A program made the translations under genes and the position numbers. From Convolutriloba macropyga (taxonomy: Eukaryota), in assembly GCF_964194025.1 (NCBI RefSeq), contig NC_134468.1:70308001-70372000 (forward strand): 64,000 nucleotides of DNA, in the 5' to 3' direction. The first letter of the stretch is position 1. The number at the start of each line of letters is the position of its first letter. The notes under the pieces are model-generated. The model was given only the letters and a program-made list of their open reading frames with translations. It made no database searches and was not told where the DNA came from. Below are positions 978 to 55,032 of this stretch, piece by piece.

Positions 978-1475
978 AAGAGCTGTGAACAACGAGTAGG
1001 TTGAGGTAATTCACCTTTTCATGCTGAGTGAGGAGTTAAGAGTGGCAATTAACCATGTACAGATGGAGGGCATAAGGTTTGTTAATCGCTAATCTAATGT
1101 GTTCAATTAGCAGTGAGCTGCTAATTGCGATTTCTCAGGTGGTAGTTTACATCACCTTTTAAACCGCGCTTTCACTTTGGTTTGCATTCGGTTTTGGTAT
1201 TTTCGTTGGTTTCTTGTGGTTTTAATTGGGTGCTTGTCTGGAGGAGGGAGGCAGGGATGTTGGTTTGGATGGAATACTTGGTTTTGGAGTTTCTTGGGTC
1301 TTTGTTATGCTTTGTGGAAGAACGGAGGGCGCGTGGGGGTGACAGGAAGGGTGTTTTAGAGGGAGTTTGGGAGAGAGGGAGTGGGGGAGAGAGTGAAGGA
1401 GTAGGGTCTTTAGAGAAGAGCAACGAAGGAAAAGACAAAGAGAAAAGAAAAAGAAGAAAAAGAGGAAGGAAAGAA

Positions 1476-1678
1476 GAGAGGCACCCTCAGTGCACCACCG
1501 GCAGCCAGACCCCCCTATCAGGGAACCATCAACCGGCTTGTGCGCTGAGAGTACGGTGACTTGTCATTGGTTTTGATTTTTATAAATAGAAAGAGGACGA
1601 GAGGCACTCTCAGTGCACCACCGACAGCCAGACCTCCCTTTCAGAGGACGAGCAGCCGGCTTGTGCACTGAGGGTACA
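1476..1678. repeat. Two ~80 bp direct repeats, each an inverted-repeat (stem-loop) unit
   Basis: 1476-1554 and 1599-1677 share gagaggcacYctcagtgcac...gtgcRctgagRgtac. The outer arms ctcagtgcac/gtgcactgag are reverse complements. The inner hairpin is ccc-cctatca-ggg in copy 1 and ctc-cctttca-gag in copy 2. Confidence 0.8.
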
Positions 1679-1756
1679 AAGGCTTGTAATTTATACCTCT
1701 TTTTGAGGCGGTTATTTTCGCCTTGCGGGGGTGAGTGGTTGTTCCAAAGCGGGAAC

Positions 1757-1974
1757 AGAGGGTGGGACCAGTATCAAGGCCTCAGCATGATTGCCACGAT
1801 CATATTGCCTTCACTTACTGGTACCCTGGAGTTAGAGCGTGGGGCCAGCATCAAGGCCTCAGCATGATTCCCACGATCATGCTGCCCTCCCTTACTGGTA
1901 CCCTGGAGTTAGAGTTAGATCAGCTTCAAGACCTAGACTGATTCCCGTGATCAGTCTAGTCTCCAACACTGATC
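1757..1974. repeat. Left hairpin-rich direct repeat (~140 bp, 1831-1974) plus upstream partial copy (1757-1837)
   Basis: gttagag..cagcatgattcccacgatcatgctgccctcccttactggta..gatcagcttcaagacctagactgattcccgtgatcagtctagtctcc..actgatc recurs at 3641-3777. It contains hairpins cagcatgat/atcatgctg and ctagactgat/atcagtctag. Confidence 0.85.
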
Positions 1975-2070
1975 AGTCATCTGCAGTTTCAGTCCCTTCT
2001 TTCTACTGTCTGTGGAGGCGTGCTGAAGGAAGAAAGAAGAAGAAAAAAAATAAAAAAAATATATATAAAA

Positions 2071-2075
<5 letters not shown>

Positions 2076-2109
<34 letters not shown>
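2076..2109. repeat. (TA)n microsatellite
   Basis: Direct reading. Confidence 0.95.
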
Positions 2110-2113
<4 letters not shown>

Positions 2114-2253
2114 CAAAAAAGATCAAGTTAGATTTCAATTTTCCCTCTTGGGTGGTGTGGTTAGTGGTGTGGTTAGAACAAGTCTAGTGAGAGTTACTTT
2201 ATTTGTTTGGTTGCCTTTAAGAAAACGCGGTTTAAGTGGCTGCTCAAGGCTGC

Positions 2254-2826
2254 TCAGTTATTTTTGTTCTTCCTCTTTCGTTGGTTTTTGGTTCTGAGCG
2301 ATGGTCTGTTTTTGCCTGCTGCTTTCTGCTTTTGTTTGTTGAGCCACTCGTAAACGGGTCTCGACGTTATCATTTCTATCAATGTTTGGTTGATCTCAAT
2401 CCCTGGATGCACTAGTATTAGTCTCAGCGCTTCCCTGTGTTCTGCTTTGACTATTTGACTCAGCCGCAGGAGAGTCACTTCCTCTGGTAGATCCTTTTGC
2501 ATTAGCTGTTCTTTGACCCCTCTTCTTGTATCTGGCATGATGGCTGCGCTGATGTTGAGTCCTGTCATCTGTCGTCCCAGCTCTTGGCTTGTCATGTCTT
2601 TGTAGTTGTTTGTGGAGTGCTCACTGAGGCTGTTGCCGATGGCGTCGTAGTAGATGTTGAAGGTTGATGATGGGTGTTGGAGTTTGATGTTGTTGATGAT
2701 GTGAGGCACTCTTTTTCTGACGTCTCTGTGGTTGAAGGAGACTCCTCCTGCAGCAAAGCTCAGTGGTAGAAGGATGTGTTTCTTGGCGTCTCTGAGGCAG
2801 GAGGCTCCGATGATGTAGTTTGGCAT
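2254..2826 (-). CDS. Intact 190-aa protein, SGNH/GDSL-hydrolase-like fold candidate with basic C-terminal tail
   Basis: ATG-initiated, uninterrupted ORF. YIIGAS (block I-like), AGGVS (block II-like), DAIGNS (block III-like) and LVHP (block V-like) occur in SGNH order and spacing. C-terminus is RTKNQRKRKNKNN. Fold assignment is by eye. Confidence 0.6.
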   Translation of the reverse strand: MPNYIIGASCLRDAKKHILLPLSFAAGGVSFNHRDVRKRVPHIINNIKLQHPSSTFNIYYDAIGNSLSEHSTNNYKDMTSQELGRQMTGLNISAAIMPDTRRGVKEQLMQKDLPEEVTLLRLSQIVKAEHREALRLILVHPGIEINQTLIEMITSRPVYEWLNKQKQKAAGKNRPSLRTKNQRKRKNKNN

Positions 2827-2906
2827 TTTGCAGTTGTATAGATGGATGGTGGTGCTATTGTGTCCCTCTTGTTAAGACAGTCATTTCAAAAAGCCGTTTT
2901 AGTTTC

Positions 2907-2956
2907 AGCCAATCAGAGGTTGGCTCTCACTTTGGTTGTTTTTGATATCCTCCAAT
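2907..2956. promoter_or_regulatory. CCAAT box(es) in the short spacer between divergent ORFs (candidate bidirectional promoter)
   Basis: AGCCAATCAG at 2907-2916 (NF-Y-type consensus) lies inside the inverted repeat agccaa-N7-ttggct. A second CCAAT is at 2952. The spacer between the two ATGs is only ~160-210 bp. Confidence 0.4.
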
Positions 2957-2984
2957 CAAGTGTTGAGAAAGTCTTTGTTTTTTG

Positions 2985-3419
2985 ATGGTTCAGTTTCAGA
3001 TTTTGGAGTTAAGTATTGCCATTTGGATCATTTTCAAGATGACTTTTTCTTCTTCTTCAACTGTTGTTTCTTCTTCTGGTGTGGTGGATAAGGTCATCAT
3101 CATCCCGCTTTCTCCACAGGACGAGGTTTGTGATCCTCGTCCAGTGCCTCGTGGGAACAAGAAGTTGGTATTTGATGCGAGGTTGCCTGATGGGCTGGCA
3201 ATGGGCAATGCCTTCATTGAGCAGAAGCGGGCGAAGAGGCAGGCAAAGAACGAGAAAGCAGCTGCCAAGCAAGCTGAGAGTTTGCCAGCTGGAGATCGTG
3301 ATACTGATAATGTTGGCACGATCTCGTCTGAATATGTTTGCGATGACCTGCCTGATGTTGGCCCCTATGATTCTGATGACCCTCGAAGTGATCCAGATGT
3401 TTACCTTAGTCGGTTTTAG
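2985..3419 (+). CDS. Intact hypothetical protein (start at ATG 2985 or 3039), basic helix followed by acidic tail
   Basis: Open frame with KRAKRQAKNEKAAAK followed by a D-rich C-terminus. Divergent from the 190-aa ORF. No family recognised. Confidence 0.45.
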   Translation: MVQFQILELSIAIWIIFKMTFSSSSTVVSSSGVVDKVIIIPLSPQDEVCDPRPVPRGNKKLVFDARLPDGLAMGNAFIEQKRAKRQAKNEKAAAKQAESLPAGDRDTDNVGTISSEYVCDDLPDVGPYDSDDPRSDPDVYLSRF

Positions 3420-3470
3420 TTTTCCTCACTGTGTGGTTGCCGTTAAAAGTTAAAAGCTGCACCTCCGTTT

Positions 3471-3591
3471 TTTCTATATTTTTGTTGTAGTGTCACTTAT
3501 TCTATAATTTTGATGTAGCATCGTTTATTCTATATACTTTTTTCTGTTGTGTCATTTATTCTATATTTTGAGTTGTAGTGTCTTTTATTCT
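3471..3591. repeat. ~30 bp minisatellite, about 4 copies
   Basis: Repeated ttattctata(t)ttt..tgtagtgtca units. Confidence 0.75.
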
Positions 3592-3640
3592 AAAAAAAGA
3601 GAAACAAAAAAAAGGAGAACCATGTTCGGTGCAAGGTGCT

Positions 3641-3777
3641 GTTAGAGTGTGGGTCAATATCGGGGCTACAGCATTATTCCCGTGATCATGCTGCCCTCCC
3701 TTACTGGTAACCTGGGGTTAGATCAGCTTCAAGACTTAGACTGATTCCCGTGATCACTCTAGTCTCCCACACTGATC
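3641..3777. repeat. Right hairpin-rich direct repeat (partner of 1831-1974)
   Basis: Same orientation and highly similar to 1831-1974, including both GAT-TCCCRYG-ATC hairpins. Confidence 0.85.
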
Positions 3778-3894
3778 TTTTTGATGCGAGGTTCATCAGT
3801 TCTTTACATAGCATCCAGCCACTTACACATATATGTAGGCGCGCACACACACACACGCAAAGAAACAAAAAATTTAATCAAGCTTAACCGGGGC

Positions 3895-4410
3895 AGTGTG
3901 TTTTTGAATTTTGCCCTAATTTTTTTTGATTGGCTTCAGCTAACGCCTCGAGTCATACACCAAGACATCCACATCTAGCTTTGTTTTGAAATTTGTCCTA
4001 ATTTTGTTTGTTTTTATACTTTTTCATTTTGAGTGGCTTCAGCTAACGCCTCGAGTCATACCCCAAGACATCCGCATCCACCTTTGTTTAAAATTTTGCC
4101 CTAATTTGTTTGTTTTTATACTTTTTCATTTTTAATGGCTTCAGCTAACGCCTCGAGTCATACCCCAAGACATCCGCGTCAACCTTTGTTTGAGTTTTGC
4201 CCTAATTTTGTTTGTTTTTATTCTTTTTCACTTTGAGTGGCTTCAGTTAACTCCTCGCGTCATACTCCAAGACATCCGCATCCAACTTTGTTTTCAATTT
4301 TGTTCTTACTTTGTTTTTTTTATATTCTTTTTCACTGTGAGTGGCTTCAGCTAACGTCTCGAGTCATACTCCAAGACATCCGCATCTACCTTTGTTTTAC
4401 AGTTTTGTGT
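3895..4410. repeat. ~103 bp tandem repeat, 5 copies, at the 3' end of the minus-strand LINE
   Basis: Core tggcttcagctaacgcctcgagtcataYcccaagacatccgcatc at ~3930, 4034, 4136, 4238 and 4342, separated by similar T-rich linkers. Confidence 0.92.
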
Positions 4411-4569
4411 TAGTTTCTTGTTTTCCTTTTCTGCCTTTTCCTTTAATTATTTTCTTGTTTCCTTTATAAAATGTTTTGCAAAGGAGTTTGAAACATTTTG
4501 ATCTGGCTCCAAGTTATTAAGTGTTTTTCTGTTATCTTTTTAATTTCCTTATTTCGTTTTATAGTCCTT

Positions 4570-7120
4570 ACGAGGTATTCCGAGCTTCATTTTTGGATTG
4601 TTTAGCTTACTATTTCTAAATTTCCTATTTGATGTAGTTCATCTACGCTTGTCCACATTGGTAGGTTATATGCAAGTCTTATGGCTTTATTTTGTCCTCT
4701 TTGTATCTTGTTGAGATCGCTTTTTGTTACATTTACCCAAGCTGCATTTGCATACATGTATAGTGGTCTTACCATTGTTTTATAAAGATACATAATTATT
4801 TTAGATTTTATTATTTATGATTTTAGGTGTCTTAGCATATTGATTCTTTGTTGCATTTTTGCGACTATTTTGTTTGCATGATTTATCCACGTCATTTTAT
4901 AATTGAGATCAAGTCCAAGAAATTTTACTTCTTTGCTGATGTTGATGTCTTCTGACCCTAAGTTAGTCTTAGATTTGTGTTCAGTATTTGTCTAGTGAAG
5001 ATGGTGTATATGGTTTTTCCCGCGTTAAGGAGTATTTTCCATTTGTCGCACTATTTTTCTAAGTGTCTGATTCCGATTTGTAAATGTTTATTAGCTATTT
5101 CTTGTTTTTCATGTTTCTAGTATATGGCAATGTCATCTGCATATTGTGAAACTAATGTATCTTTACATTTTGGTTTGCTTACATACATATTGAACAAGAT
5201 TGGGCTTACGATGCTCCCTTGGGGGACTCCTGCTTCGGGTGTGAAGCTTTTGGAAATTGCTTGTTTGTATTTAACTTTGTTTTTTCTGTCACTTAGGAAG
5301 CTGCTAGTCCATTTTGTGATCCACCATGGTGTGTTAATCTGAATTAGCTCATATAAGATACCTTCGTGCCATACTGAGTCAAAAGCTTGCTCTACATCTA
5401 AGAAGGCAGCAGCTGTGGCACCTTTCCATTTAAAGCTTGTTGTTGCTTTTTCTGTTAGCGTTAGAAGGTTATCTGTTGTGCATCTGCCAGATCTGTAGGC
5501 ACTTTGTTGATCACCGAACAGGTTAATTGTTCACATTGATTTACCAAGTGTTCGTTTACATTTTCACACAGTTTTCCAATGCAAGATGTTAATGATAATG
5601 GTCTGTATCCTTTTAGCGTTTTGTGATCTTTTCCTACTTTAGGTATCATTGTAACGGTTTTAGTTTTCCATTGGGCTGGTACATGTCCTAACTGTATTGA
5701 TGTTTGAATTGTTTGTGCTAGGTTTTCTATTGTTTCTAATGGTAAGTGTTTTATCATTTAATAGCTTATTCCATCTTGGCCTCGTGCAGTATTTTTACGA
5801 TTTCCTAAATTATTTTTGAGAGTTGCAAGTTTTTCTTCTGTGTGTTTCCTTTCATCTTCATTTAGTTTAATTGTCTTAAAGTTTGTTTCTCTTATTTTTA
5901 GTGATACAGTTTTCTCGTGATCTTTTCCCTTATGTGTTTTTGATTCGTTTGTTTTCATTGTTGTTTTTAATTTTTCAGCGAATGCATCTGCAGCTTCCTG
6001 ATTATTCATTTGTAATTGTTCGTTGTTTTTCTGGATTTGGTTAAGTAATATTTTTGCAGCTTTCCAGAAGCTATTGCCTTTCTTTGCTTGGTTTAAATTG
6101 TCAATTAGTTTCATTTGTTGTCTTGTTGTGTTTTCTTTACTTATTCTATTTCTGTTGTCAGTATGCTGATCTTGTTGCATATTATTTGGTGTTGGGTTGT
6201 GTTTCTTTCGTCGTTTCTTCTCAGTTTGTTCCTTTTTCTCTCTAGTTTGTGCTTTTCTCTTGTCAGTTTTTAATTTGGTGGTTTGTAGCTATGTGTTTAT
6301 TCATGTATATGCTCTCTTTTTATGCAGTTTGATTTTTTGTGTAATCTGGTCTATGTTCTTTTCTAAGTCTATTTTGTTTCTTATGTTCCTGTTTAGGTCA
6401 TCTGAGTTTTGTAGGATATCATTTTTGTATTTTTCCCAGTAAACTTTTTTTATGTGACTCGATTGTTTTGTCTATGTTATAGGTGCTACCAGTTGGGTAG
6501 TGATCACTAGGAATTTTCTTTGGAAACATAAAAATTATCGAATAAGCTGGTGAGTTTAGGGTTGGCTAGGTGTACATCTAGTGTTCCACAATCTTTGTGT
6601 GTGCAATCATAATTACTTAGTATTATATAGTTTTCCTCATCAAGCCGTTGTTCGATTAATTTTCCCGTTCTGTTAATGGTTAGGTCATTGGCTCCAAACA
6701 TTGGGTTTTTTACATTAATATCACCAGTGATTAAGTGGACTTCGTTGTTTGCTATTTTTGTGATTAGGTCCGTTCTTATTTCTAAATGTGTTGATACATA
6801 GATTTTTGTTACGTAGAGTCGAAGTACTTTTATTGTAACACATTCTTGTGTTAGTTTGCTCTCTGATTTATATGTTTTTGTTTCTATAAGTTCGTAATTT
6901 AATCGGTGTTTGATATAGATTGCAGATCCTAAGCGGCTGTGTTTAGTGTTTCCTTATAGGGTATATCCTTTGGATGGTTTTTCCTACCTAAGTTAGTTTC
7001 GTTCAGGCAAGCTATGTCAGCTTGGGTTTTTCCAATATATTTAATATTTCTATTTTGTTTTTTTTTTAGTCCGCGACAGTTTAGTTGCGTGACTATTAGT
7101 GTTTTTTGTGATTTTTGTTT
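4570..7120 (-). pseudogene. LINE ORF2 (AP endonuclease + reverse transcriptase), frameshifted
   Basis: Fragments 6507-6701, 5758-6180, 5461-5757 and 4602-4793 plus intervening frames reconstruct APE-RT in order. YADD lies at ~5130-5145. Confidence 0.88.
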
Positions 7121-7382
7121 TTCAATAATTTTGTTTTTTGTTTTAAACGGTTTTGATTTTGAAGTTGTTTCAAGGTGTTGTTTCTCTTATTGCTGGGTGA
7201 TCTGGTTTTTAGTTCTGTTCTCACTGAGTTTATTTAGTTTGTGTCTCATTTTCACCTCGTCTACTGTTATTTTGTTGTCTTTTAACACTTCACATAACAC
7301 TTTTGTGACGTCCTCCATGATTGTTTTCCTAATATTTTCTCTCGTTTTTTCATTTATTTTATTGCATTTTGTGCAATAAAAA

Positions 7383-8402
7383 TCATTTGCTATTTTTTGC
7401 GCTGGTTTCTGGTTTGTTTATGAGGGCCTCTGCATATGACGCAGCGCGTGCAATTAGTGTTGCTTCTTTATACTTTTGGCAACCTTTATAGGCAGCGCTG
7501 TGCTTCTCATTGCAATTTGCGCAGCAAGGTTCATTTTGATTGCAATCTTTGACGTGGTGGTGTCCACCACATTTTGGGCATCTTTGCATGTTATCGCAGT
7601 TTGCTGCTATGTGACCAGGTGCTTGGCATTTGAAACATTGCACTACTTTTGGTTGTTGTTTTGATTGTTCACTTTTGAATTTTTGTAGACACAGTACTAC
7701 CCGATTTGTGATTGCTTTTTTTGCTTGGTTTTCGTCTTTAGTAAGGACTCCAACTAGTCTTGTTTCTTGGTTTGTAACGCTGCTTTTGACCCTAAATATT
7801 TTTTCAGATTTGATTCCTTGTTCATTTAGTTGTTCTTTAATTGTGTTTAGGCTTACATCTAGCGAAACTTTTGTGATCACAAAGCACGGGGTTACTTTTT
7901 CTCGGCTTATGTTGTTGTTAGCGTTAACTTTTACTTTGTACTTTTGACACTCTTGTATGATGTTCTGTGGTGTAAGCAATTTCGATGATTCTTTATTTGT
8001 GGGTTTTATGGAGAAGCCATTTCTCATTGGCATTTCTCTTACACTGCCCGGGTCTCGTTGGTTAGTAAGTTTGATCATGGCGTTGGCAAAAGTAGCTATT
8101 CGAGGTCTCTCTCCCTCAAAATTAATGTAAACAATTCGTTGGTTATTAGTGTTTACTTTTTGTTGCTCTACATTAGGGCGTTTACCAGCAGCTTCGGCTT
8201 TTTCGCCTGCATCAAGGGCCCGTTTTCGGGTTTTAGAAAAGGTGGTACCATTTTCATTTTGTGGATTTGTGTCCGTATCTATCTCTAGACCCAATTCTAT
8301 GCTCTCGTTGGAAAGGGTCGGTTCATATGGGTCGTTTGAGGGGGGATGGAAGTGGGTGCTTGTTTGCGGCTGTACGGAGTCGCGGTCTAAATGATTTTTC
8401 AT
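7383..8402 (-). CDS. LINE ORF1 nucleic-acid-binding (gag-like) protein with three CCHC-type knuckles
   Basis: QCFKCQAPGHIAANC, RCPKCGGHHHVKDC and CCANCNEKHSAAYKGC, preceded by a PRE_C2HC-like region. Probably truncated at 7383. Confidence 0.85.
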   Translation of the reverse strand: MKNHLDRDSVQPQTSTHFHPPSNDPYEPTLSNESIELGLEIDTDTNPQNENGTTFSKTRKRALDAGEKAEAAGKRPNVEQQKVNTNNQRIVYINFEGERPRIATFANAMIKLTNQRDPGSVREMPMRNGFSIKPTNKESSKLLTPQNIIQECQKYKVKVNANNNISREKVTPCFVITKVSLDVSLNTIKEQLNEQGIKSEKIFRVKSSVTNQETRLVGVLTKDENQAKKAITNRVVLCLQKFKSEQSKQQPKVVQCFKCQAPGHIAANCDNMQRCPKCGGHHHVKDCNQNEPCCANCNEKHSAAYKGCQKYKEATLIARAASYAEALINKPETSAKNSK

Positions 8403-9330
8403 GTTTTGGGCTTGGGGGCTTTTTTTGGAGGTTTAAGGGAGGGTTAAACTTTTGTTCGTATTAACCGGCGTCCCGGTAGTTAGAATATATCTAAACAATT
8501 CAATTTAGTTTTTATTGCTACTTATTGCTTATTGCTAGTTATTGCTTAGTTAAAAAGTTGCAAAAACACTTATCCTATATTTAAAAGCTTCGGGGTGCTA
8601 ATCCGGAGTGGTCTAGGGAATCACTAAGCCAGCCTATGCTAAGAAAAAAGCAAAAAAGGCACCAATTCACCTCACCGGCAACTTTTCGGAAGAGTTACTA
8701 GGCTACTGGTAAGGCTTCAAGGCACCCCTAATACTCTCCAAGCAAGGGCTACTGCTTCTGGTCTCACTCCTTCGTCTTGCTCTTTCGTCAGTTGCCTGCT
8801 TCTCCACTTCCTCTCACTTCTCAGGTCGTCTTGTCACGAGCTTCTCCAATGTCTCTCTTGCTTCTCCAGTTGCTTTTTTCGTCTTGTTGGGTCGCTGTTG
8901 GGTTGTAGAAATTAGCTTTGGAGGGCATAAGGTTTGTATCGCTTCTCATGCAGAGAGCGGAGTTTGCAAAATTATGAGGAAACTTATGGCACATAAGTTT
9001 GTTTACAAGCATACTGTAAATTGGAAACTGGTAACTGTTCAAAAAGCTGGTCATGCATAAAAACAGGTTGAAAAGGTTATGATTAAGGGCAGAAATAAAT
9101 CTGACCAATTGATCCGGGTATATTATTCCTGAGATGGTTTGTTCACGGAATTAAACTCACAGCAAAAAGTCAGGTTGGCTACCTTTTTAAAGAAACAACT
9201 TATCGAATCAATAAGTTTAGTTCAATTGAGGACAATTAGTAAGTTCTTTTCTCTAGTGTTAAGGTTAATCTGGTATGAGTCTTGATTCTTACTGTCTTTA
9301 ATTTTATTGTTATCTTCAACAACGTAGAAG

Positions 9331-28700: not shown

Positions 28701-31700
28701 GTACACAATGGATGGTAAAACTTCTCTTTGTTCACATCTTCTTGAAGTTTTACCTCAAAATTTTTACTGCTTCGTTCGGGACAATTGAATTTCTTCCCGA
28801 GGAACTTAAAATGAAAGCTATGAATCACTCGTTTTAAAAATCAATCAACTTTCGGGGGTATTCATATCTTCAAGAAATGCCGAATGATATTGTTGCTATT
28901 CTAGTTTTTCGTAAGAAATCGGTTTGACATATACAGCTTATTGGTTTTTTCGAAGAATTGGCATCCTTTAGACAGTGTTTTTAGCAGTTTTTACGTCTGA
29001 AAACGTACCTTAGTCATGATTCTGTTAGATTTTTGCTCATCATTGGAGCCTGCTCAAAACAGGAGACAGGAAAACCGGAAAAGCCAATTCTTCAGAGCTA
29101 CAATCTTGTTGTGTTCTATCTCTACCTGTCTTTTCTTTCTCTGGTCTTTCTCTCTCGTTTCCTTAACATCATTGTTCCGTTCATTTTCTTTAGTGGGGCT
29201 TTCAAGTAACGTTAGTGGTACAAATCTTTTACTAGGGACTTCATTTCGTGTGCCAGCTCCTGTTTGAGTTCACTGAAATTGTACAGCTGTGTTGTCTGCT
29301 TCCACTTTAATATCAAGTGCTTCGTAACCCTTAGAATCTTTAATCTAGTGCGTGACAGTGTGCTCAATCGGCCCTTTTGTTACCTGTTTTAAGTATTGGT
29401 TAAAAGAAAGGCAACAAAATGCTGTTAACTACCACAGGAATTCCACATTAATTTTTAAAAATTTTGAATTAAATTCTTGCTTTCTGTCCCATTTAAGAAA
29501 GGTTAAAAACGGAGCTGACAATGGCTAAAGCTTCCAATTGGAAGGAACTGCCAATTGAATCTGACTCTGATGAAAAATAAAGTTTTCGGACTTTGCGTTT
29601 ATCTTCACGTTGACCTAAAGTTGAAGCTAACCGGAATAGATTAAACTATATGAAATGAGCTAATATGGAAACGAGTTCGTTAACATTTTATTAGAAATTT
29701 GTAAATTTTGTTAACATATAACTTCCCCAACAATTTTTAATACCTGTTTCGTAGTTTTTGAAATTTTTGAGTACTTGGTTTTCTTTTTTGAACAGGAATT
29801 TTGCTTTCAATCCTATTTGTTGTTGTCATTGGGTTTTGCTGTTGTGGTCATTTGGAAATAAGACATGTACTATTATGACTTTCAAATCCCGAATGTCAAA
29901 TTCTGCATTTGAACAAATATTTCAATGTCAAGATAACCAAATTTCAATATTTCGATATCCAATGACGAGATAACACGGGTCACAGATCAGAGTTTTTCTT
30001 TTTCTGGTGAAAACAGCACGCGCTACTTGTTGACAGAACAGATTTTGCATTAGCAACTGTTCTTTGTTAAACTACTGTCGTAAAATTCATCAACTGCTAA
30101 TCATGGATTCACTCTGTTATCGGACTCCGAGTTTTATGTTGCCGTTTGGAAGTTGCAAAGTATTAAGCAGCGTAATTATAGAAAAAGTTCAGTAGAAAAT
30201 TTGCCAGTTTCTTTGAAAAGCAATAAGATGATAATCACGTGAAGTGTGCACTTGATCATGCATCCATTGTTCCAAACCATACTTTTCACTTTATATTATA
30301 TTGCCTTATAATCATGACTTTTGAAGAGCTCACCTAGCTGGTTTCCAATGAAAATTGGCAGCATTTCTGCTTAATTTTTTGCGACTCTCTGTTTGTATTT
30401 TACTAGAATTCAGAGCAGCGTTTGGAGCGGAAAAGATTGAAATTTTGCATTAAAACAGAAAAGCAGATAAATAACAGCCTCATAAAGTTGATGAAGCAGC
30501 TCAAAATTAGTCAAAAATTTTGTCAGTTACTCAGATCAACTGGTTCAGATTCAGCCAAAAATTCTTGGTTTAGCATAAGAACCCAAAAAATACACCTCTT
30601 TGAACTATTCCTTTGATATCTGGCAGGAGCTATGAAAATTTGAACAGTTTTTGGCGCCGTCCTTCTAAAACTTACTCTGCCTAAACAACGTTAAATCTGA
30701 AATCAAAACACAATATGCTAGAAAAAATAAAGTTTCACACTTTTTGGTTGCTAAAGAGCAAATTATATATCTTGAGTTAAAGAAATTTGTATACCAATGT
30801 GGCGGTTGGAGAAGTTTAAAAATTTTCCTCGAGATTTCTACTCAAGCACTCTGGAAATAGAGATCCAAAGTTCCGCAATTAAAGTTTACTAGGGATAGTG
30901 GTTACAAATTTTTTTTTAAATGAAAGTGCACCTGTTATGTGCAATTAGAGGGCTAGCTCAGGTTGCATCACAGGCTGTAATTTTAGCAAACAATTGGGTC
31001 ATATTGTTTGTGGCATCATTGCAAAAAGCAGAGTGAATCAATGAACATCTCTCTAATTGAGAACAAATCGGGAATACAAAAAGATGCAATCGGAGAGTGA
31101 TTTTCCGAGGAAACGGAATAGTATGTTAGTTATGCAAGAACTGCTTACACGCAAAGTGCCAAAAAAATATCAAGAAGACGGCATGCCAATATGGGAACGC
31201 TGTATGGCTTTGTAATATCTGGAGCCATAAACAAACAGCGGAGAAAATTGAGGAAAAAGCTTATTCAAAATATTTGTGGATGAATTATCTACGTAGTTAG
31301 TGGTGACCCAGTGAATGATAAGTTTGCGGTAAGTTACAAGTACTTAAACCTTGCACTTTCAATCTACAAAAATCTGCTTTCCACCCTAGAGATAGTTGAT
31401 TACAAATTGAACTCAGTTCTTCTCCATATCAACGTAAACTTTAGCAACGATAATAAAAATACCTGTCGCTGGTATCAGAATTCAACCGACAGGAAGATAA
31501 TACTTAATTTTCACAGATGTGTACCGCTTCAGGAATAGAAAAAACTTAATTAAAAAGACGGTTAGCAGGGTTTTAGCGCAAGAACTACTTTTTTGGGCTT
31601 CGGTAAAACGCTTGTATAGAAAAAAACATGCAGGACTAAAAATCCCTGTCCAGCTAAATTGTCTTCGGGAATGAAGAACCAGACTTCACATAAGATGAAA

Positions 31701-35679: not shown

Positions 35680-38600
35680 GCTGTGCAGGTACTTTGGTGT
35701 ACAGACTTTTAAGATAGAAGGTTACTACTTTCCCATTTTCCTCCAAATCGATAAATTCTACTGCGGTTCCGGCACCCTCCAATATTAGCGACAACTTCTG
35801 GAAAAAGCGAGACAACTAATTATTAAGATTATTAAGATTATCTCAATTCATGTCGGGTATCAACGAAACAGTTTGAAGAGGACTGTCGTGAAAAGAGACT
35901 CTTATAAACCTTTTCAATAAACCTTCCTGTTTTTTTTAATTCCTAAAAAACTGCTACTGATTTGTTTTTTTTCCGACTATTGACATTTTTACGGAAGGTC
36001 GTATTTTTGCTCACTATGAGGCTTAAAATCATGCCGCTTAGGATGTCTTTTTCAACACACAAAATATATGCTTTTTATGAAACCTTACAACTAGTCAAAA
36101 AAGCATGATTTTTTTGAACCCCCTATCAATCGGCGTCACCCGCGCTTTTTTCGTGTAACACTTCGCAGAGGATTCTTTTCCCATAACATCACAGTCAGTG
36201 CAGTTATCTCAGAGCCCATAAGTTAATCTAATGACTAAGTCCTGCAAAAGTTGCACCCTTTTAAATTTGTCTGTAACCAAAAGCTTTGGAACTAATGACA
36301 GGATGTCAAAAACAAATTTTGGCAGTTCAACAAGTCTAATGCAACAATTCTATTCTGAGAGCCATTTTGCAAGCGCATATCCTGTCGCCCAGTTAGCTTT
36401 GCTAACTTGTCTTTGAGTGTCTCACCAAACAATTTCGAACAGTGCCTTATTTACTTTTTAATGTTGTACACATTAACTTTTCTTTGTTCACATCTCCTGA
36501 GGATGTCCTTATCTTCTTGAAGTTTTTCCTCAAAATATTCACTACTTTGTTCCGCATATTTGAATTGCTTCCCGAAGAACTTAAAGTGAAAGCTATGAAT
36601 CAATCTTTCTAAAAAATCAATCAACTTTTGTGGTATTCAGATTTTCAAGAAAATCCGAATGTTTTTGTTACTATTCTAGTTTTGCGTAAAAAAGCTGTTT
36701 GATATATACAGCTTATTGGTTTAGTCGAAGAATTGGCGTCCTTTAGATAGTGTTTTTAATAGTTTTTATGCCTGAAAATGTATCCTAAGTCATGGTTTTT
36801 TTAGATTTTTGCTCATCATTCGAGCCTGCTCAAAACTGGAGACAGAAACACCCGAAAAGCCAATTCATCGGAGCTACAATCTTGTTGTGTTCTATCGCCA
36901 CCTGTTTTTTCTTTCTCTTGCCTTCCTCTCTCGTTTCCTTAATTTCATTGTTGCGTTAATTTTTTTTAGTAGGGCTTTCAGATTACGTTAGTGGTAAAAA
37001 TCGTTTACTAGGGATTTCATCTCGTGTGCCAGCTCCTGTTTGAGTTCACTGAATTTTTTTAGCTGTATTGTCTGCCTCGACTTTGATATCGAGTGCTTCG
37101 TAACCCCTAGAATCAATAATCCATCGCATAGCAGCGCTTTTTGAAAATATTTGAGGTTCGAAACCGTTGACAGTATTCAATCGCTTCAAATTTGTTCTTA
37201 TTCGTAGTCAAATATTTGGTCAGCCCTTGCGCACTTTTTGGCCTGGAATCACTTAGTTTTTTCAGTGTGCTCAATTGGGCCCTTGAAAAAACATTTTGTG
37301 CATCTTTAACCTGTTTTATGTATGGGTTAAAAGAACGACGAAGAAATGCTGTTAACTACCACAAGAATTCCACATTAATTTTTAAAAATTTTTAATTAAA
37401 TTCTTGCTTTCTGTTCTATTTAAGATATGTTAAAAACGGAATTGGCAATGGCTAAAGCTTCGAAGAATAAGGAATTGTCATTTGAATCTGACTCTGATGA
37501 AAAAAACGAACATTTTCGGACTTTGCGTTCATCATCACGTTCAACTAAAATTGATGCTAAACGGAATGGGATAAACTGAAAAGTTTGCACAACTGACCTT
37601 AATTAATTTATTTAACTCTACGAAATGAGCTAAAACTAAAACGAATTAATTGACATTATATTAGAAATTTGTAATTTTTGTTAACATATAACACACCCAA
37701 CAAATTATAATACCTGTTTCGTTGTTTTCGAAATTTCCGAGTACTTGTTTTTTATTTGAACAGGAAATTTGCTTTCAAGTTTTTCTGTTGTTGTTTTTGG
37801 GGTTTGCTTTTGCAGTTATTTGGAAATAAGACATGTACCAATATGAATTTCAGATCTTGAATGTCAAATTCTGCAATTGAACAAGTATTTCCATGTCAAG
37901 ATGACAAATTTTAATGCCACAATTTTTTGCTGATATTTCAATATCCGATGAGGAGAATACACGGGTCACAGATCAGCATTTTTCTGGTAAAAACAGCACG
38001 CGTTACTTCTTGACAACATATTTTGCAGTAGCAAGTGTTCTTTGTTAAACTACCGTCGTAAAATCTGTTAACTGCTAATCATAGATTCACTCTGATATCG
38101 GACTCTGAAATTTATGTTGTTGTTTGAAAGTTGCAGAGTTTTGAGCAGTCCAATTATGGAAACAATTCAGTGACAACTTTGCCAGTTTCTTTGAAAAGCA
38201 GGAAAATGATAAGTGAAAGTGTGCTCTTGATCATGCATCTATTGTTCCATATCATGCATCTATACAATATTTTGCATTGTAAATTAGAATGCTTGATAGT
38301 CATGACTTTTTAAGGGCTCACCTCGCTGGTTTCCAATGAAAACTTGCAACCTTGTTGCTTGATTTTTTGAGGATTTTTCTTTGCTTTTTACTAGAATTCA
38401 GAGCACATTTGGAACGCAAAAGGATGCAATTTTAGATTAAAACTGAAAAGCAGATGAATAACAGCCTCGAACAGTTGATGAAGCAGGTCAAAATTAGTCA
38501 AAAATTTCAGCAGAAACTCTGATCAACTGGTTCGGATTCTGCCACATTTTCTTGGTTTAGCATAAAAACCCAAGAGAAAATACCTTTTGGAAATTTCCCT

Positions 38601-42212: not shown

Positions 42213-43636
42213 TTATAGTTTCTAGAGTAAAGTGTCTTATAGTTGAAATCAAGGACTAAGGAAGGGCTAACTGCAAAACACTGCGAGAAGTTTTCAGTAT
42301 GTCAATGGTTTAGCGAGTATCAATTTTTTAGATTTACCAAGATGGTGCATAATTTGGCTGCAAGCCCGCTTTGCCGCGCTGTAAAATGTCTCGCTTATTC
42401 AGGGAAAAAACAGTTTTTAGGGAAAATGACATCAGTTCCCGGATTCTCCTTCAACAGAAACTCCTAAAACTGGTTCAAAAACGCAGAAAATCTCCTTCAG
42501 AAGGGTCATCTGAGCAGCAAGAAACACTTGGTAGAGTTGATAACGTGCGTGCCGGAGTTGATAACGTTTCTGAGAACGAACAAAGACCGCTTCAATGCTT
42601 TTGCTTACTATCGATAGATAGGCACAGAAGATAAAGGAAGACGCAGCCAGTGAAGTATTGACAGCTGTATCAGGAAGCTGGATTGGGGATTAAGACCCTG
42701 GAGACAGAATTACCCCATCAATACAATTAAAGAAGCCTGCTCAAGAAAGGAAAATGCAAGAACTTGGGCAAAAGGCTGAGGAAAGCGAGAACCAAGGCAA
42801 GAAAGGTGCAACAGACACAGACTGAGGAGGAGCTCTTGAACAGTCGGGTTTCAATGCTCCTGTTCCTGAGCTTCTTTGTGTTATGTGGTTGTCGCTACCA
42901 AAGACGTGGCTCAGGTATATCTTGATTACTTGAAAAACCTAAATAAGATCACTAGCTGCAATTACCGAATAAATTTTTTAAAACAATGCATTAACAATTA
43001 TATAATTCCAAATTTTTCGAAGTTTCGTGCTTCTAAAGTTTTTTCTGAACAAGCGGTGCACAGTTTTCAATTAAACTCCTGAAACAAGAAAAAAACCGTG
43101 CTGAAAAAGGCCGTAAAGTGTTAAGGGAAAAACTTGAAACAGATTGGAGTGAATTTAAGGAGAAGGTGAGACCAGAACTGATGCCATCCGTTGATGCCAG
43201 AATTAAGTTTGAAATGAGGAATCACTCCACAATGGTTCAAAATAGATTTAATGGGAAACTTGATGAACTGTCAGAGAAACAGGACAGACCATTGCAGAAT
43301 GGCTTCCATAGTAATGTTGTGATAATGGATGGGAGTGAATTTCCAAAGTTTGTACTTGACATTCTATCTTTTGGAGCTAAACACCCTGTGAGAGACAAAT
43401 TTACCGAGGTGCAATTCCTCGCAGACGTAGACAAACTTGTACGTGAATTACGCGAGAATAAAACTGCGGGTGAGAAGCTTTGTGAAATTGAGGTGTCAAT
43501 GGAATGCTATGCAAAAGGTGTACGCGAAACCCGAATGGATAGCGGGGTCAAAAAAGTGCATGAATAACTAAAAGCCAAGGATTTGCTGGCGGTACTATTT
43601 GACAAAAGCTGTGGTTTCTGTGTGATGAAGAAGTCA

Positions 43637-50415: not shown

Positions 50416-50607
50416 TCCTAGAAACATAATTTGTTCTTGTTGGGCTCCCCAGATTATTGGGCATATAATTTTTACGTCCCTTTGCACATGTGCTTCTTTT
50501 ACTTACGTAAGGTGCTATATAACAACTCAGTGGGATTCATAAAAATGCTGGGGATTGAAATAGATTAGATCGAGAATTTTAATGATGAAATGCTCTTTCA
50601 GAATGAC

Positions 50608-50959
50608 ATGAATGTTCCACGTCATAAAAAAATTGTTCCCGAGATTGAGGGATTCGAAATTCCTTCTTGGGCTGGAAAACCATCATCAGGGTTGCATTTA
50701 GATGTTCTGAAAGACAAAGATGGCGAGGTCAAAATGATACAAAAAATGATGGTGGACGAGAAAAAGGCTTACTTCTTTGGACGAAACCCTCTCTACTGCG
50801 ACTTCACCATTGACCACGCCTCTTGTTCGAGAGTTCACGCTGTGCTGCTTTTCCACAAAAATCTCAACAAATCTTTTTTAGTTGATCTCAATAGTGCTCA
50901 CGGGACATTCATTGGGAAAGTCCGTTTGGAGGCTTTGAAACCTACTCAGATACATTTAG
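50608..50959 (+). CDS. PPP1R8: PPP1R8/NIPP1 (nuclear inhibitor of PP1) coding exon 1, FHA domain; alternative in-frame ATG at 50590
   Basis: FEIPSWAGKP..GLHLDVLK..YFFGRN..CDFTIDHASCSRVHA..LVDLNSAHGTFIG is the NIPP1 FHA domain. Donor g|gtaatt at 50959/50960. Confidence 0.93.
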
Positions 50960-51018
50960 GTAATTAATGTGTGATGAAGTCTGTTAAAATAACCGTTACC
51001 AGCTGTAACAGATGTTGC

Positions 51019-51126
51019 GGGTCTTTCCCATTATAGCCCCCAGCTTAGTGGTCAGATAACCTATAGCCCCCCCCCCCATCATGGTAAATATACCATAATG
51101 GGGGGGGGGGGGCTATAATGGGACCC
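51019..51126. mobile_element. ~108 bp MITE with 8-bp target-site duplication in PPP1R8 intron 1
   Basis: Begins gggtc(ttt)cccattatagcccc and ends ggggctataatgggaccc. Flanked by gatgttgc on both sides (51011-51018, 51127-51134). Confidence 0.85.
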
Positions 51127-51241
51127 GATGTTGCTTATACATTTTTTTTTCAAGGAGGGGCTTATAAATACCAGCCTTGAAGGGTGGGATAAAATTTAGG
51201 CAATTTTTAAGTGCATCAACTTATCAGTCTCTGTTTCGCAG

Positions 51242-51515
51242 ATTCAACAATATCTTTCGGTGCTTCAACAAGACAGTATATTATTCGGGAACGACCGCAA
51301 GCCATGCCAGCTGAAGACCACCGTCCAGAAGACGTCGCTAACTTAACTGGTCTGGCACGTTTTGGACTGCCACAAGACGAATCGGCTCTAGATAACTTAA
51401 CAGAGTACAACACAGCACATAATAAAAGAGTAACAATTTTGAGTGGAGTTGACGAAAATAGCTCTAGCGAAGGACCAGCTGCGAAGAAAGCCAGGTTTAT
51501 TGGTGTGCGTTTCAG
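51242..51515 (+). CDS. PPP1R8: PPP1R8/NIPP1 coding exon 2
   Basis: Acceptor tttcgcag. DSTISFGASTRQYIIRERP..GLPQDESALDNLTEYNTAHNKR. Donor ag|gtacgt. Confidence 0.93.
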
Positions 51516-52589
51516 GTACGTTAGGGTGTTCTTTGCTACATTAATTTTAGTACTGTTGTTCTCGTACCGTTTTGTCACATCATTCTTGATATATCTCATG
51601 CGATTTGTTGCTAAATTAGTTTACACCCAAATGGGTTTCAACTTAGAGTTGGATCACATTGTTCAGCAATTTTGAGAATTGTTTAATTTTTGCAAGTATA
51701 TTTGCGCCCTAGAAAGTTTGCTATCCATAAGTGTGCTCGCAAGATAGGTGGGACATCGTGTGCCCACCCAAGATTCATAATCAAGTATTTTTCTGAAAAT
51801 GATCATTTTATACATCCATTTGATATTTCGTTCTGTATATTTCTTTCCTAACTTAATATTTATTTCTGTATTTTTCGTCAAATAGCATGAGTTCATTTGT
51901 CTAACTGAAACGAATTTCTCGGAACCTATACGAATTTTAAGAATTTCCTCAATTGTTCCGAAAATACACACAGTCAAAATAAATTCAGAATAGATAATGG
52001 GAGTAAACAACTTTATACTAGCCTCATTTTTTGGTTAGCCAATTTTGGTGTATTGGTATCATCTGCGGAGACATATAAATGTGGTACCATTAAACAGCAC
52101 TTAAAAACAGCAGATTATTCAAGAGATATGCTCAGTTCAGCTCTTTAAGGTTAAAACGAAGAAAAAATTATATCGAAAACTTCAAATTGATCTTACTACT
52201 TTTGGGGGAAAAGATTTTAAAGTCATCTGAGAACACAGTCCGTCATAAATGGTTAGTTAGGCGATCTTAATGTTAAGGCAAGATCTGCCAAAAAGCAGAG
52301 ATGATTTTTTAATCTAGACCAGCTCTGAGAGCACTTACCCACCTTTGTTTGATTAGTCATTCTAAGTTGGTCGAACATCCGTCAATTTTCCCAATCCAAT
52401 TTGTTTCGCTGAATTTTTTTCAGAAATTTTACATCAAATAATGAAGACAATTGAAGTATAATTTGGAGAAGTGTTTAGTATAATCTGTTGTTAAATTTTC
52501 TGAAGCGTCATCGGATCAGTTGTAGTATGAGGTGCCTTTGCATGCGTTTGGCGAACAGTGCAAATGGAAGAGGAAAGCACTGTAGATCT

Positions 52590-53740
52590 CCGATTTTCAG
52601 TGGCTTTTGTACGAAGTCTGAAGCAATTATATTAGTGTTGTTGGTCTTTTTATGCGATTCTTCGTACTACCACTTTTTTCCGTCAGACCACTTGAAAGAT
52701 TTTCCCCACTGAGTTCTCTTAGAACCTTACTGCTCACTAGCCTCTGTGTATGCAATTTAACAAAGCTATTTAGCAGACATAAATTAATGATGCAAAGGGC
52801 GGTTCTTAGAGTTCAACCTAAATCCCACCTCCTTCACACATCCACCCACCACTTCAACCACCCGGCCGTTCGACCTTTCCCCCCGAATTAAGCGAAAGCT
52901 GGTCTCTACGAACTGCAGCTAGCTACTGACGAAGGCAACCACTCGCCATTTGTTTGAGAGCAATTAGCATGATGTTAATCAGTTATATTTTAAATTTCTA
53001 ATCAAAGTTGAACCTCACTATAATTCTGATTTCAGTTTTTGAAAATCATTTACATTGGACTGGGAAGTTAGAGTACATAAATGGGACTCTAGGGAGGATA
53101 AAAATTGCAGCTAAATAATAACCGTAAGTTAAAGATTTTCAAATGAAAGATTTGATTAGATAATAATTGTTATTAATTGCTCTCGAACGAAGCTTCGAAG
53201 CAATTATTGTAAACGTGTTGGTCTTTTTTATGCCAAGTTTTTGCTTGACCGTTTTGACTTTTCGGGTGACTTCTCCGCCCTTGACTTTTTTGTTTTGCGT
53301 GATTTAAAATTCTCTCTCATTCACAATTCCCAAGTATCAGCAGCTGAAATCAAGTGGAGGCAGTTCACTACTCAGTCAGATGAAAATTGTGCCGAAATTG
53401 GAGTATTTCTTACTTTAAGTTTTATTAGTGATTATAATAACCTCTCATGACGTAGTTTGAAGCCGCCTTAATGATTTTAGTTACTCCTCCCCCTCTCGCA
53501 ATTTAAGCAGACTGCAATAGATTCCACCTCTCACTGCTCGTTAGAGAGCAATTCTTTCTACGTTAGTTGCTTATGTTTTTTAATTGCTCTTGAACGAAAT
53601 TTGAGGCTATAATTGTAAACGCATGGGTCTTTTTTATGCGAAATTTTTGCTTGACTGTATTTTTCTAGAATATATTTTTTGGTTTCATTTCTCGAGTGAC
53701 TTTCTCGCGCTTGACGTCTTGATTTTATCGTGACCTAAAT
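52590..53740. repeat. Dispersed repeat family remnants in PPP1R8 intron 2, related to 56560-57430
   Basis: Shared blocks: gcaattat..ggtcttttt(t)atg..gcttgac (52621, 53198, 53607, 56605) and agggcggttctta..gtttgagagcaatt (52795-52965, 57185-57405). Confidence 0.55.
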
Positions 53741-54593
53741 TGCTTTTATTCGGAATTTAAGCTTGTTGCGTAAATATAACCGATTGTAAGATAAGCTATT
53801 ACAAGGACCTAATAGCCGAGGGTTTAGAGCTTCAGATTCTTACTCCGGAGGCTTGGGGTATGAAACCATTGGGGTGTTCGCTTGTTCTGGCAAGTCATAT
53901 CTTTATTTCAAACTGGAAACCTGCTTCTTTGCGTTAAAGGCACATAACTTTAGAATAACTTTTCTTAGGTTTTCCCAAGTCATCAAGTATCTCTTGTATC
54001 CATTTACAAGTCAAAAGCTATCAGCATTTAACCATTTTTCAAACCTGTCAAGTTCTAAAGATCATTTGTTTGTGTAACTTGTCGTGATGCTGTTTGCTTG
54101 TTTTTCTCACTGTTCAGAAATGAAATTTTGCTAACATATCAATTTTGTCTCTAATAGTTTTTTTGGCTGTAAATCAGTTTTTGGCCGAGAAGTTAAAGGC
54201 GTATATTTGTTGCAAATTATTGGTTTTGCTTGAAAGTTTTTCGATCAGGTTGTGATAATTTATCATCAAATTTGCTATCAAAATTTGATGATTTTACTAT
54301 TTTGGGTGGTGGCGGTCAAGCAAGCCGATAGGCAAGCAACCCGAATTTTGAAAATGAGGTCAATTAAGCCGAAAAATTTGGAGATACCCGTATTTTAAGT
54401 TGCCCCTGGCGGGCCGGTGGGCGCGCGCCGCGGCTTCGCCGCGATAACTGGCCCGTGATTTCCGGATTACATCCCACAGCGGATGAGAGGCATGGTCATG
54501 GAGGGGGGTTATGTTCTATGGTCGATATTATGGAGAATTTGGCTAGTTAAAGTATTGACTGTACAATGTATTACGATGACTTCAATTGTTTAG

Positions 54594-55032
54594 GGAAGAA
54601 GAGGATGTAATAAACCCTGAAGACATTGACCCAACAGTAGGAAAGTTCCGAAACCTAATCCAGACTGCAATAATTCCCAAAACCAGCTCCAAAGCACCTC
54701 AATCTGCTCTTTCACCAACTGCCTTAGAACCCAGCAGCCAGAACAACCACAACACTCAGCATCACATTCTACGACCTATAAAAGACGATTCGTTCAACTT
54801 ATATGCAGGACTTCTAGACAACCCTATCAGCTCAATCAGAATTAACTCAGCTCCAGATGTAGATCTGTCAGTAAAGCCGGACGCCGATGACCAAACATCA
54901 AATGTAGCGGGTGTCGGGCTAAACCAAGAGTCTCTTAATGAACTGGCCGGGAATGAACTTATGCCTAAGAAGAAGTATTTCCCAAAAGAAGCATGGCCGG
55001 GGCGGAAACCTACGGGTGGCATGGCCATTTAG
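54594..55032 (+). CDS. PPP1R8: PPP1R8/NIPP1 coding exon 3
   Basis: Acceptor ttgtttag, phase matches exon 2. EEEDVINPEDIDPTVGKFRNLIQT and C-terminal KKKYFPKEAWPGRKP are NIPP1 hallmarks. Confidence 0.93.

What the first reader, a model, noticed from the sequence alone, without database searches (positions are those of the whole stretch)
1757..3777. Hairpin-bounded cassette: two divergent intact ORFs (one SGNH-like) between ~140 bp direct repeats
Seen: direct repeats 1831-1974 and 3641-3777 enclose ~1.67 kb. Inside are an intact 190-aa minus ORF and an intact ~126-144-aa plus ORF, head-to-head around CCAAT boxes, while nearly all neighbouring mobile ORFs are decayed. No RT, integrase, transposase or Rep is encoded. 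Inference: a compact non-autonomous mobile module (LTR-like, tyrosine-recombinase-dependent, or virus/satellite-derived) that carries cargo genes and could excise by recombination between the repeats. It does not fit a standard TE class.
Basis: partly seen in the sequence, partly recalled or inferred. Interest (0 to 1): 0.72.

Follow-up and report, generated by a model that had tools for sequence, protein, structure and literature searches.

The report
LINE retrotransposon with extra esterase-like gene
The supposed cassette is the inside of the long tail of an ordinary-type LINE retrotransposon, and it holds a third gene, kept by selection and predicted to fold like a lipid esterase, whose relatives ride in three other kinds of jumping gene in the same animal genome and likely help them spread.

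Summary
The repeats and both ORFs are real, but they are not a free-standing module. They lie in the 3.4-kb 3' region of a 7.8-kb LINE (window 1083-8918, minus strand; zinc-knuckle ORF1, decayed endonuclease-RT ORF2, 19-bp target-site duplication). All 8 genomic loci with cassette DNA sit in this LINE. The 190-aa ORF is on the LINE's sense strand (an ORF3). It evolved under purifying selection inside the family (23 synonymous versus 18 non-synonymous shared changes, ratio 0.22, p=2e-6) and its model matches SGNH hydrolases (best Z 9.8; Ser, Gly, Asn, His kept, no DxxH Asp). Its 24-30%-identical relatives are a very abundant, Pfam-less, stand-alone gene family placed upstream of ORF1 in CR1/L2-like LINEs, upstream of gag in BEL/Pao LTR elements and upstream of a Penelope-like RT in this genome. 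Most copies of this LINE have lost the cassette, by several different deletions or collapse to one repeat. The antisense 126-aa ORF is unproven (ratio 0.5, p=0.10). Sharing of SGNH genes among retroelements is known from rotifers; a 3' stand-alone one in a zinc-knuckle LINE was not found in my searches. Function and expression are untested.

The parts
1064..1082 (.). Target-site duplication, copy at the LINE 3' end (19 bp)
   Evidence: exact match to 8919-8937
1083..8918 (-). Whole LINE (non-LTR retrotransposon), 7.8 kb
   Evidence: shared ends among copies and TSD
1083..1170 (-). 3' terminal hairpins and short simple-repeat tail, which varies between copies
   Evidence: 22 ends aligned; fold z=-3.4
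1473..1691 (.). Two 96-nt repeats, 123 bp apart, in the 3' region
1757..1910 (.). Two 77-bp tandem units; number varies between copies (a long array in L133)
1831..1974 (.). Left ~140-bp repeat (77-mer plus nested hairpin)
2060..2110 (.). (TA)n microsatellite, variable between copies
2254..2826 (-). ORF3, 190 aa, sense to the LINE: predicted SGNH fold plus basic C-terminal tail; under purifying selection
2827..3038 (.). Spacer between the divergent ORFs with two CCAAT pentamers; promoter role inferred only (first CCAAT kept in 3 of 5 copies, second in 2 of 5)
3039..3419 (+). Antisense ORF, 126 aa from ATG; coding status unproven
3475..3598 (.). Four degenerate ~29-bp T-rich repeats; several deletion junctions end near here
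3641..3777 (.). Right ~137-bp repeat
3882..4434 (.). 102-bp tandem array of the LINE 3' region; copy number varies
4480..7150 (-). ORF2 (AP endonuclease + RT, about 907 codons in the family), broken here by 8 stops and 10 frameshifts; ends approximate
7383..8402 (-). ORF1, 339 aa, open, three CCHC-type knuckles
8403..8918 (-). 5' untranslated region
8919..8937 (.). Target-site duplication, copy at the LINE 5' end

Best explanation
The cassette is the interior of the 3' region of a 7.8-kb LINE, and its 190-aa ORF is a third, sense-strand gene of that LINE, kept by purifying selection, predicted to have an SGNH-esterase fold, and likely taken from a pool of related stand-alone genes used by other retroelements of this genome. 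Shown: the LINE moves as one unit by target-primed reverse transcription (TSDs, 5' truncations, two of them inside ORF3); ORF3 was selected while inside this family; most copies have lost the cassette. Inferred: the gene entered this one lineage after it split from its sister LINE families, flanked by a duplicated hairpin repeat; it is probably expressed from an internal promoter in the spacer, since it is third on the RNA; the protein most likely acts as a lipid-binding serine esterase with a basic tail that helps retrotransposon particles meet membranes, as proposed for the ZfL2-1 esterase; because it is a separate protein it would work in trans, so cassette-less derivatives (template switching or recombination between the repeats, and internal deletions) keep moving and outnumber the full form.
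For: LINE: 19-bp TSD at 1064-1082/8919-8937; exact flanking matches of 13 bp or more in 14 of 21 copies tested; shared 3' end with variable tails in 22 ends; zf-CCHC, APE and RT Pfam hits. Cassette only in the LINE: 8 of 8 loci; L139 is 5'-truncated inside ORF3 with a 13-bp TSD at the break and L141 carries ORF3 with a 22-bp TSD. Selection: pairwise dN/dS window versus 8 copies 0.22-0.40 in 7, 0.72 in 1, against 1.0-1.7 and 0.63-1.8 in the shifted frames; shared changes 23 syn/18 non-syn, ratio 0.22, p=2e-6, shifted frames 1.7 and 0.71. Fold: model pLDDT 81; the 38 best VIA-align rows are all SGNH/GDSL-type chains by title and my knowledge of them, best OatA Z 9.8, rmsd 3.7, 142 aligned; Foldseek top PatB prob 1.0, TM 0.53, E 7e-3; S9 89/94, G28 86/94, N65 90/94, H140 91/94. 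Shared pool: relatives upstream of ORF1 in APE-RT LINEs, between LTR and gag-pol in BEL/Pao elements, upstream of an RT+GIY-YIG ORF; 2,254-2,848 first-look candidates in the genome; 1,010 clusters at 50% identity. Lineage-specific gain: 0 of 19 sister-family loci have a profile hit. Loss: 8 cassette loci against 170 candidates for the 3' end; 0 of 15 full-length copies whose 3' region was fetched carry ORF3; about nine junction types; cassette-bearing copies occur among the oldest and the youngest branches.
Against: No expression data. ORF3 lacks the block-V Asp and has Tyr-Tyr where the family has Trp-His at 59-60 (88 and 89 of 94), so it may be weak or dead as an enzyme. Foldseek E-values are not significant and rmsd is 3.6-4.3 A; no Pfam SGNH hit in 94 members. 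ORF3 is a very long branch (3.2 changes per column) and its donor is unresolved in a quick tree, so 'taken from the pool' rests on distribution, not on nesting. The family trees have weak support at the deep nodes, and single-repeat copies could be a pre-capture state rather than losses. ORF3 is open in only 2 of 8 loci. Frequent loss shows the gene is not needed in cis, which fits a trans role but also fits little benefit. Copy counts are lower bounds from partly scored searches.
Confidence: 0.72

Rival explanations
1. One reading: an independent non-autonomous module bounded by LTR-like repeats that inserted into the LINE and excises or moves on its own.
For: Two real ~140-bp repeats bound the ORFs; 6 single hybrid repeats look like products of recombination between them; old left and right repeats were nearly alike.
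Against: 0 of 8 cassette loci and 0 of 29 repeat-bearing rows lie outside the LINE; TSDs bound the LINE; two copies are 5'-truncated inside ORF3, as LINE copies are.
Confidence: 0.04
2. ORF3 is a catalytically dead SGNH protein that binds RNA or membranes, like the Oskar OSK domain, and serves as a scaffold or silencing antagonist rather than as an esterase.
For: No DxxH Asp, family Trp-His motif replaced; pI 10.2 with 12 Lys/Arg in the last 30 residues; Oskar OSK is among the structural matches, Z 6.9; catalytically dead SGNH derivatives occur in Athena-L elements (PMC5408684 passages).
Against: Ser, Gly, Asn and His are kept in 86-91 of 94 diverse members and in ORF3; active esterases rank above Oskar.
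Confidence: 0.2
3. The cassette is a passive passenger: a fragment of another element captured into the LINE 3' region, whose selection signal predates capture or comes from repeated conversion.
For: Most copies lack it; repeated loss; relatives are normal parts of other elements.
Against: The synonymous excess is measured between copies that all sit in the same LINE context; no DNA match to any other element; ORF3 is far from every relative.
Confidence: 0.06
4. The window copy itself (ORF1, ORF3 and the antisense ORF open, ORF2 ruined) is kept by the host or descends from a non-autonomous sub-lineage moved in trans.
For: ORF2 has 18 breaks in 2.7 kb while the other three ORFs have none; chance of ORF1 staying open is 0.001 (all breaks) to 0.05 (stops only); ORF1 is open in 1 of 12 other copies; ORF3 has 9 non-synonymous changes on the window branch against about 18 expected, p=0.017.
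Against: ORF1 non-synonymous divergence (0.032) is close to that of ORF2 (0.040); the two cassette ORFs were picked for being open; some ORF2 frameshifts may be assembly errors in A-runs; no second copy sharing these ORF2 breaks was looked for. This is compatible with the best explanation rather than exclusive.
Confidence: 0.2

Closest known systems
GDSL/SGNH ORF3 of bdelloid Vesta LTR retrotransposons and Athena/Terminon elements (PMC5408684; search listing and 12 passages read)
   Same: A separate SGNH gene as third ORF, family-specific gain and loss, shared between unrelated retroelement classes in one host.
   Different: There the carriers are LTR and Penelope-like elements and the paper reports no significant departure from neutrality within the genome; here the 3' carrier is an APE-type LINE, purifying selection is clear, and the family also sits 5' in CR1/L2-like, BEL/Pao and Penelope-like elements.
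ORF1 esterase of CR1, L2, RTEX and Penelope-like elements; ZfL2-1 esterase (PMC3905857, 12 passages; PMC4120745, 12 passages)
   Same: SGNH fold, basic protein, encoded by non-LTR elements; model for function (weak esterase, phospholipid binding).
   Different: Those esterases are a domain of ORF1 with a coiled coil, upstream of ORF2, with a full Ser-Asp-His triad, and in the Jockey superfamily survey were found only in vertebrate L2 and CR1 groups. Here the gene is stand-alone, additional to a normal ORF1, downstream of ORF2, lacks the Asp, and no family member gave a sequence hit to a solved esterase.
Jockey/I-group LINEs with type I ORF1 (PMC4120745 passages)
   Same: Three CCHC knuckles in ORF1, APE+RT ORF2 of about 900 aa, TSDs, 5' truncation.
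   Different: 3.4-kb 3' region with arrays, duplicated hairpin repeat, ORF3 and an antisense ORF; microsatellite-like tail. Clade not placed against reference RTs.
TART-type LINEs with long 3' regions and non-terminal repeats; Ngaro elements with an SGNH ORF (both recalled; Ngaro paper PMC9210276 seen only as a search listing)
   Same: Long repeat-bearing 3' region (TART); hydrolase ORF plus split direct repeats (Ngaro).
   Different: Copies are dispersed with TSDs, not telomeric arrays; no tyrosine recombinase; the RT is LINE-type.

Membership tests
APE-type non-LTR retrotransposon (LINE) | ORF2 with AP endonuclease and RT | tested here: met
   Pfam hits in window pieces and sister copies; broken in this copy
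APE-type non-LTR retrotransposon (LINE) | Variable-length TSD around the whole element | tested here: met
   19 bp here; 13-24 bp in 14 of 21 copies
APE-type non-LTR retrotransposon (LINE) | Fixed 3' end with simple-repeat tail, 5' truncations | tested here: met
Jockey/I-group LINE | Type I ORF1 with three CCHC knuckles | tested here: met
Jockey/I-group LINE | RT clade placement against reference elements | not tested
   no reference RT set on hand; the tree only separates it from the CR1/L2-like families of this genome
SGNH/GDSL hydrolase | Flavodoxin-like SGNH fold | tested here: met
   predicted model; VIA-align Z 9.8 to OatA and a list dominated by SGNH chains; Foldseek top hits SGNH but E 7e-3
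SGNH/GDSL hydrolase | Conserved Ser, Gly, Asn, His in four blocks | tested here: met
   S9, G28, N65, H140 in 86-91 of 94; block assignment is by motif order and secondary structure, not by residue-level superposition
SGNH/GDSL hydrolase | Asp of the DxxH motif (full triad) | tested here: not met
   position 137 is variable, no Asp among the common residues; an acid could come from elsewhere, e.g. D61 (85 of 94), untested
SGNH/GDSL hydrolase | Esterase activity | not testable with these tools
   needs assay
ORF1-type LINE esterase (type IV ORF1) | Esterase is a domain of ORF1 upstream of ORF2 | tested here: not met
   stand-alone and downstream of ORF2; a separate CCHC ORF1 is present
Non-autonomous LTR-like or recombinase-dependent module | Copies end at the repeats, in unrelated flanks | tested here: not met
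   0 of 8 cassette loci, 0 of 29 rows
Non-autonomous LTR-like or recombinase-dependent module | Extrachromosomal circles | not tested
   no raw reads examined
Ribozyme-bearing retrozyme or pLTR | Hammerhead or HDV-like ribozyme in the repeat | tested here: inconclusive
   no ribozyme family at E<=1 in Rfam scan of 1000-9000

The most novel reading that the evidence does not exclude
A single, undescribed family of ~200-aa stand-alone SGNH proteins works as an interchangeable helper for at least four unrelated retroelement groups in one animal lineage (CR1/L2-like, BEL/Pao, Penelope-like and this zinc-knuckle LINE); in this LINE it is a plug-in two-gene unit with its own bidirectional promoter that acts in trans as a public good, so gene-less cheater copies arise again and again and outnumber the carriers.
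Probability: 0.25. Interest if true: 0.75.

Novelty: new variant of a known kind. Interest (0 to 1): 0.5.

Why it matters
Why retrotransposons carry esterases is an open question (PMC3905857, PMC5408684). Here the esterase-like gene is a small separate protein, is shown to be under selection, and exists with and without the gene in the same LINE family and across four retroelement groups of one genome, including young intact carriers. That makes the question testable: express one small protein, mutate Ser and His, and compare carriers with non-carriers. It also flags a family of about 1,000 sequence clusters that Pfam does not cover.

Tried and rejected
Independent repeat-bounded module, LTR pair, Ngaro/DIRS split repeats, Helitron/Helentron ends (considered from memory): rejected by flank homology and TSDs. 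Spliced-out intron as the cause of cassette loss: junctions differ between copies, so not pursued. C3636 as a haplotig of the window: rejected, 86-92% identity and a different tail. Pfam on both ORFs and on 10 and 94 family members: no SGNH family. PDB by sequence: only histone H2B low-score matches to the basic region with the small profile, nothing with the large one. First fold (10 sequences, pLDDT 69) gave no clear Foldseek match. Longer fused forms: none among 7,993 candidates scored, weak evidence. Protein atlas gave no result. Rfam: one chance-level hit only. Family tree could not place the donor of ORF3; quick method, one row left out. AATAAA downstream of ORF3 is present in 3 of 7 copies only, not used. 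In one search my labels for L120, L152, L119 and L124 were provisional; searches show L120 and L152 are left-type single repeats and L119 and L124 keep both repeats. L079, L086 and L147 dropped out of both trees for low coverage. Earlier scan findings: nothing returned. Literature: 7 full-text searches ran; none listed a paper whose title or abstract start describes a 3' stand-alone SGNH gene in a LINE or an SGNH gene in BEL/Pao; PMC7998251 passage was unrelated. Repbase/Dfam reports, subscription papers and supplements were not seen and may already hold such elements.

Full report
Observation. The repeats at 1831-1974 and 3641-3777 are real (84% identity), each built of a 77-bp unit and a nested hairpin that folds better than shuffles (z=-4.3). 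The 190-aa minus ORF (2254-2826) and the plus ORF (ATG 3039 to 3419, 126 aa) are open. Two CCAAT pentamers lie between them.

The unit is a LINE, not a cassette. A search of the own genome (1.18 Gb) returned 30 loci. In all 29 non-self rows, some of which are the same place, homology runs past the repeats: leftwards to a common end near 1083-1096 followed by variable simple-repeat tails (22 ends), rightwards through a 102-bp array into a decayed ORF2 (RT and AP-endonuclease Pfam hits) and an open 339-aa ORF1 with three CCHC knuckles. A 19-bp exact duplication at 1064-1082 and 8919-8937 bounds the whole 7.8-kb element; 14 of 21 copies tested have exact flanking matches of 13-24 bp. The 190-aa ORF is thus on the sense strand, downstream of ORF2: an ORF3. 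The 126-aa ORF is antisense.

The cassette never appears alone. The cassette interior gave 10 matches at 8 loci, all candidates scored, against 170 first-look candidates for the 3' end. All 8 loci are in LINE context. Two are 5'-truncated inside ORF3, one with a 13-bp TSD right at the break; a third carries ORF3 with a 22-bp TSD and has lost only the antisense ORF. So cassette-bearing RNA was retrotransposed by the normal LINE route.

Most copies have lost it. Of 20 stretches fetched from 5'-end hits, 15 reached the 3' region and none had ORF3. About nine junction types are visible; three share a right-hand segment and may be nested, so independent events are fewer. Six copies have one hybrid repeat, left-type body and right-type flank, as expected from recombination or template switching between the repeats, although old right repeats also look left-type, so a pre-capture state is not excluded. 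Carriers occur among the deepest and the youngest branches of two trees (deep support is weak), and the two most diverged loci (70-77% to the window) are carriers. Repeated loss from a persisting carrier line is the simplest reading.

ORF3 is a selected gene. Pairwise dN/dS from the window to 8 copies is 0.22-0.40 in 7 and 0.72 in 1, while shifted frames give 1.0-1.7 and 0.63-1.8. Changes shared between subfamilies are 23 synonymous and 18 non-synonymous (ratio 0.22, p=2e-6; shifted frames 1.7 and 0.71). ORF3 is open in 2 of 8 loci. The antisense ORF gives 8 versus 13 (ratio 0.5, p=0.10, equal to one shifted frame), is open end to end in 1 of 5 loci here, and has only 4 database relatives, 66-88% identical, one of them full length. 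Its status is undecided.

What ORF3 is. No Pfam family matches it or 93 relatives. A 46-sequence model (pLDDT 81) matches SGNH hydrolases: VIA-align best OatA Z 9.8, rmsd 3.7, 142 residues, with SGNH/GDSL-type chains filling the top of the list; Foldseek best PatB, probability 1.0, TM 0.53, E 7e-3. Ser9, Gly28, Asn65 and His140 are kept in 86-91 of 94 sequences; the DxxH Asp is absent, and ORF3 has lost the family's Trp-His pair. The protein is basic (pI 10.2).

Its relatives. At 24-30% identity the genome holds many open ~200-aa relatives; three searches with database members gave 2,254-2,848 candidates and 150 of 150 scored matches each. They are separate ORFs upstream of a PHD-type ORF1 and APE-RT ORF2 (CR1/L2-like by architecture), between the 5' LTR and gag-pol of BEL/Pao elements (LTRs 98-99% alike; Peptidase_A17 in three loci), and upstream of an RT+GIY-YIG ORF (one locus). 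The profile finds 1,010 clusters at 50% identity in unnamed data (no names). None of 19 loci from sister LINE families (41-50% RT identity) has a hit, so the 3' gene is special to this lineage. ORF3 is a very long branch and its donor is unresolved.

Mechanism. Shown: LINE retrotransposition of the whole unit, selection on ORF3, recurrent cassette-less forms. Inferred: capture from the genome's pool of SGNH genes; expression from an internal promoter, since a third ORF is unlikely to be read from full-length RNA (established knowledge of LINE translation, recalled) and the CCAAT motifs are only partly kept (3 of 5 and 2 of 5 copies); a lipid-binding esterase role modelled on ZfL2-1, which hydrolyses esters weakly and binds phospholipids (PMC3905857 passages); action in trans, which would let deleted copies free-ride. 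I put 0.95 on the LINE reading, 0.9 on ORF3 being a selected SGNH-fold gene, about 0.5 on catalytic activity and about 0.35 on the trans free-rider step.

An unexplained point. In the window copy ORF2 has 8 stops and 10 frameshifts, while ORF1, ORF3 and the antisense ORF have none. ORF1 was not part of the pick, and is open in only 1 of 12 other copies; chance is 0.001-0.05. ORF1's non-synonymous divergence is, however, near the ORF2 value. A non-autonomous phase or host retention is possible, not shown.

Comparison with what is known. Bdelloid LTR and Athena elements share GDSL ORF3s (PMC5408684 passages), so sharing between classes is known. LINE esterases are described as ORF1 domains of CR1, L2, RTEX and Penelope-like elements, in the Jockey-superfamily survey only in vertebrate groups. 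Seven searches listed no paper on a stand-alone 3' SGNH gene in a zinc-knuckle LINE or on SGNH in BEL/Pao; repeat databases and subscription papers were not searched. Verdict: a new variant of a known kind, interest 0.5.

Noticed in passing
L167:4335-8535, L169:4486-6612: Two copies of sister LINE families with intact ORF2 end directly before histone H2B genes inside a histone gene cluster; other copies of these families lie elsewhere or in tandem, so targeting is not shown.
   Followed up: no
window 16000-40500: Long array of ~2.17-kb diverged tandem repeats with (TA)n tracts.
   Followed up: no
window 29215-29379, 36991-37355, 42243-42614: Decayed fragments of the same SGNH-like gene family, profile E 3.5e-8 to 0.5.
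   Followed up: no
L210:1123-5229: Penelope-like element: SGNH-like ORF, then an 885-aa ORF with RT, a PHD finger in the middle and GIY-YIG, between 378-bp repeats 99.5% alike.
   Followed up: partly
L146:2815-4373 (also L008): 1.5-kb internally deleted derivative joining the 5' end of this LINE to its 3' region, SINE-like; no clear TSD found.
   Followed up: partly
L013:1845-1911: 67-bp piece of ORF2 sequence fills the deletion junction, a sign of template switching during reverse transcription.
   Followed up: partly
L079:4111-8517, L137:1693-5114, L077:4915-7217: Internal tandem duplications of 1.0-1.35-kb blocks in three cassette-bearing copies.
   Followed up: no
window 50569-56236: Host genes: an FHA-domain NIPP1-like gene in exons and an intronless RRM gene resembling RBM7/RBM11 (names recalled, translations).
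   Followed up: no
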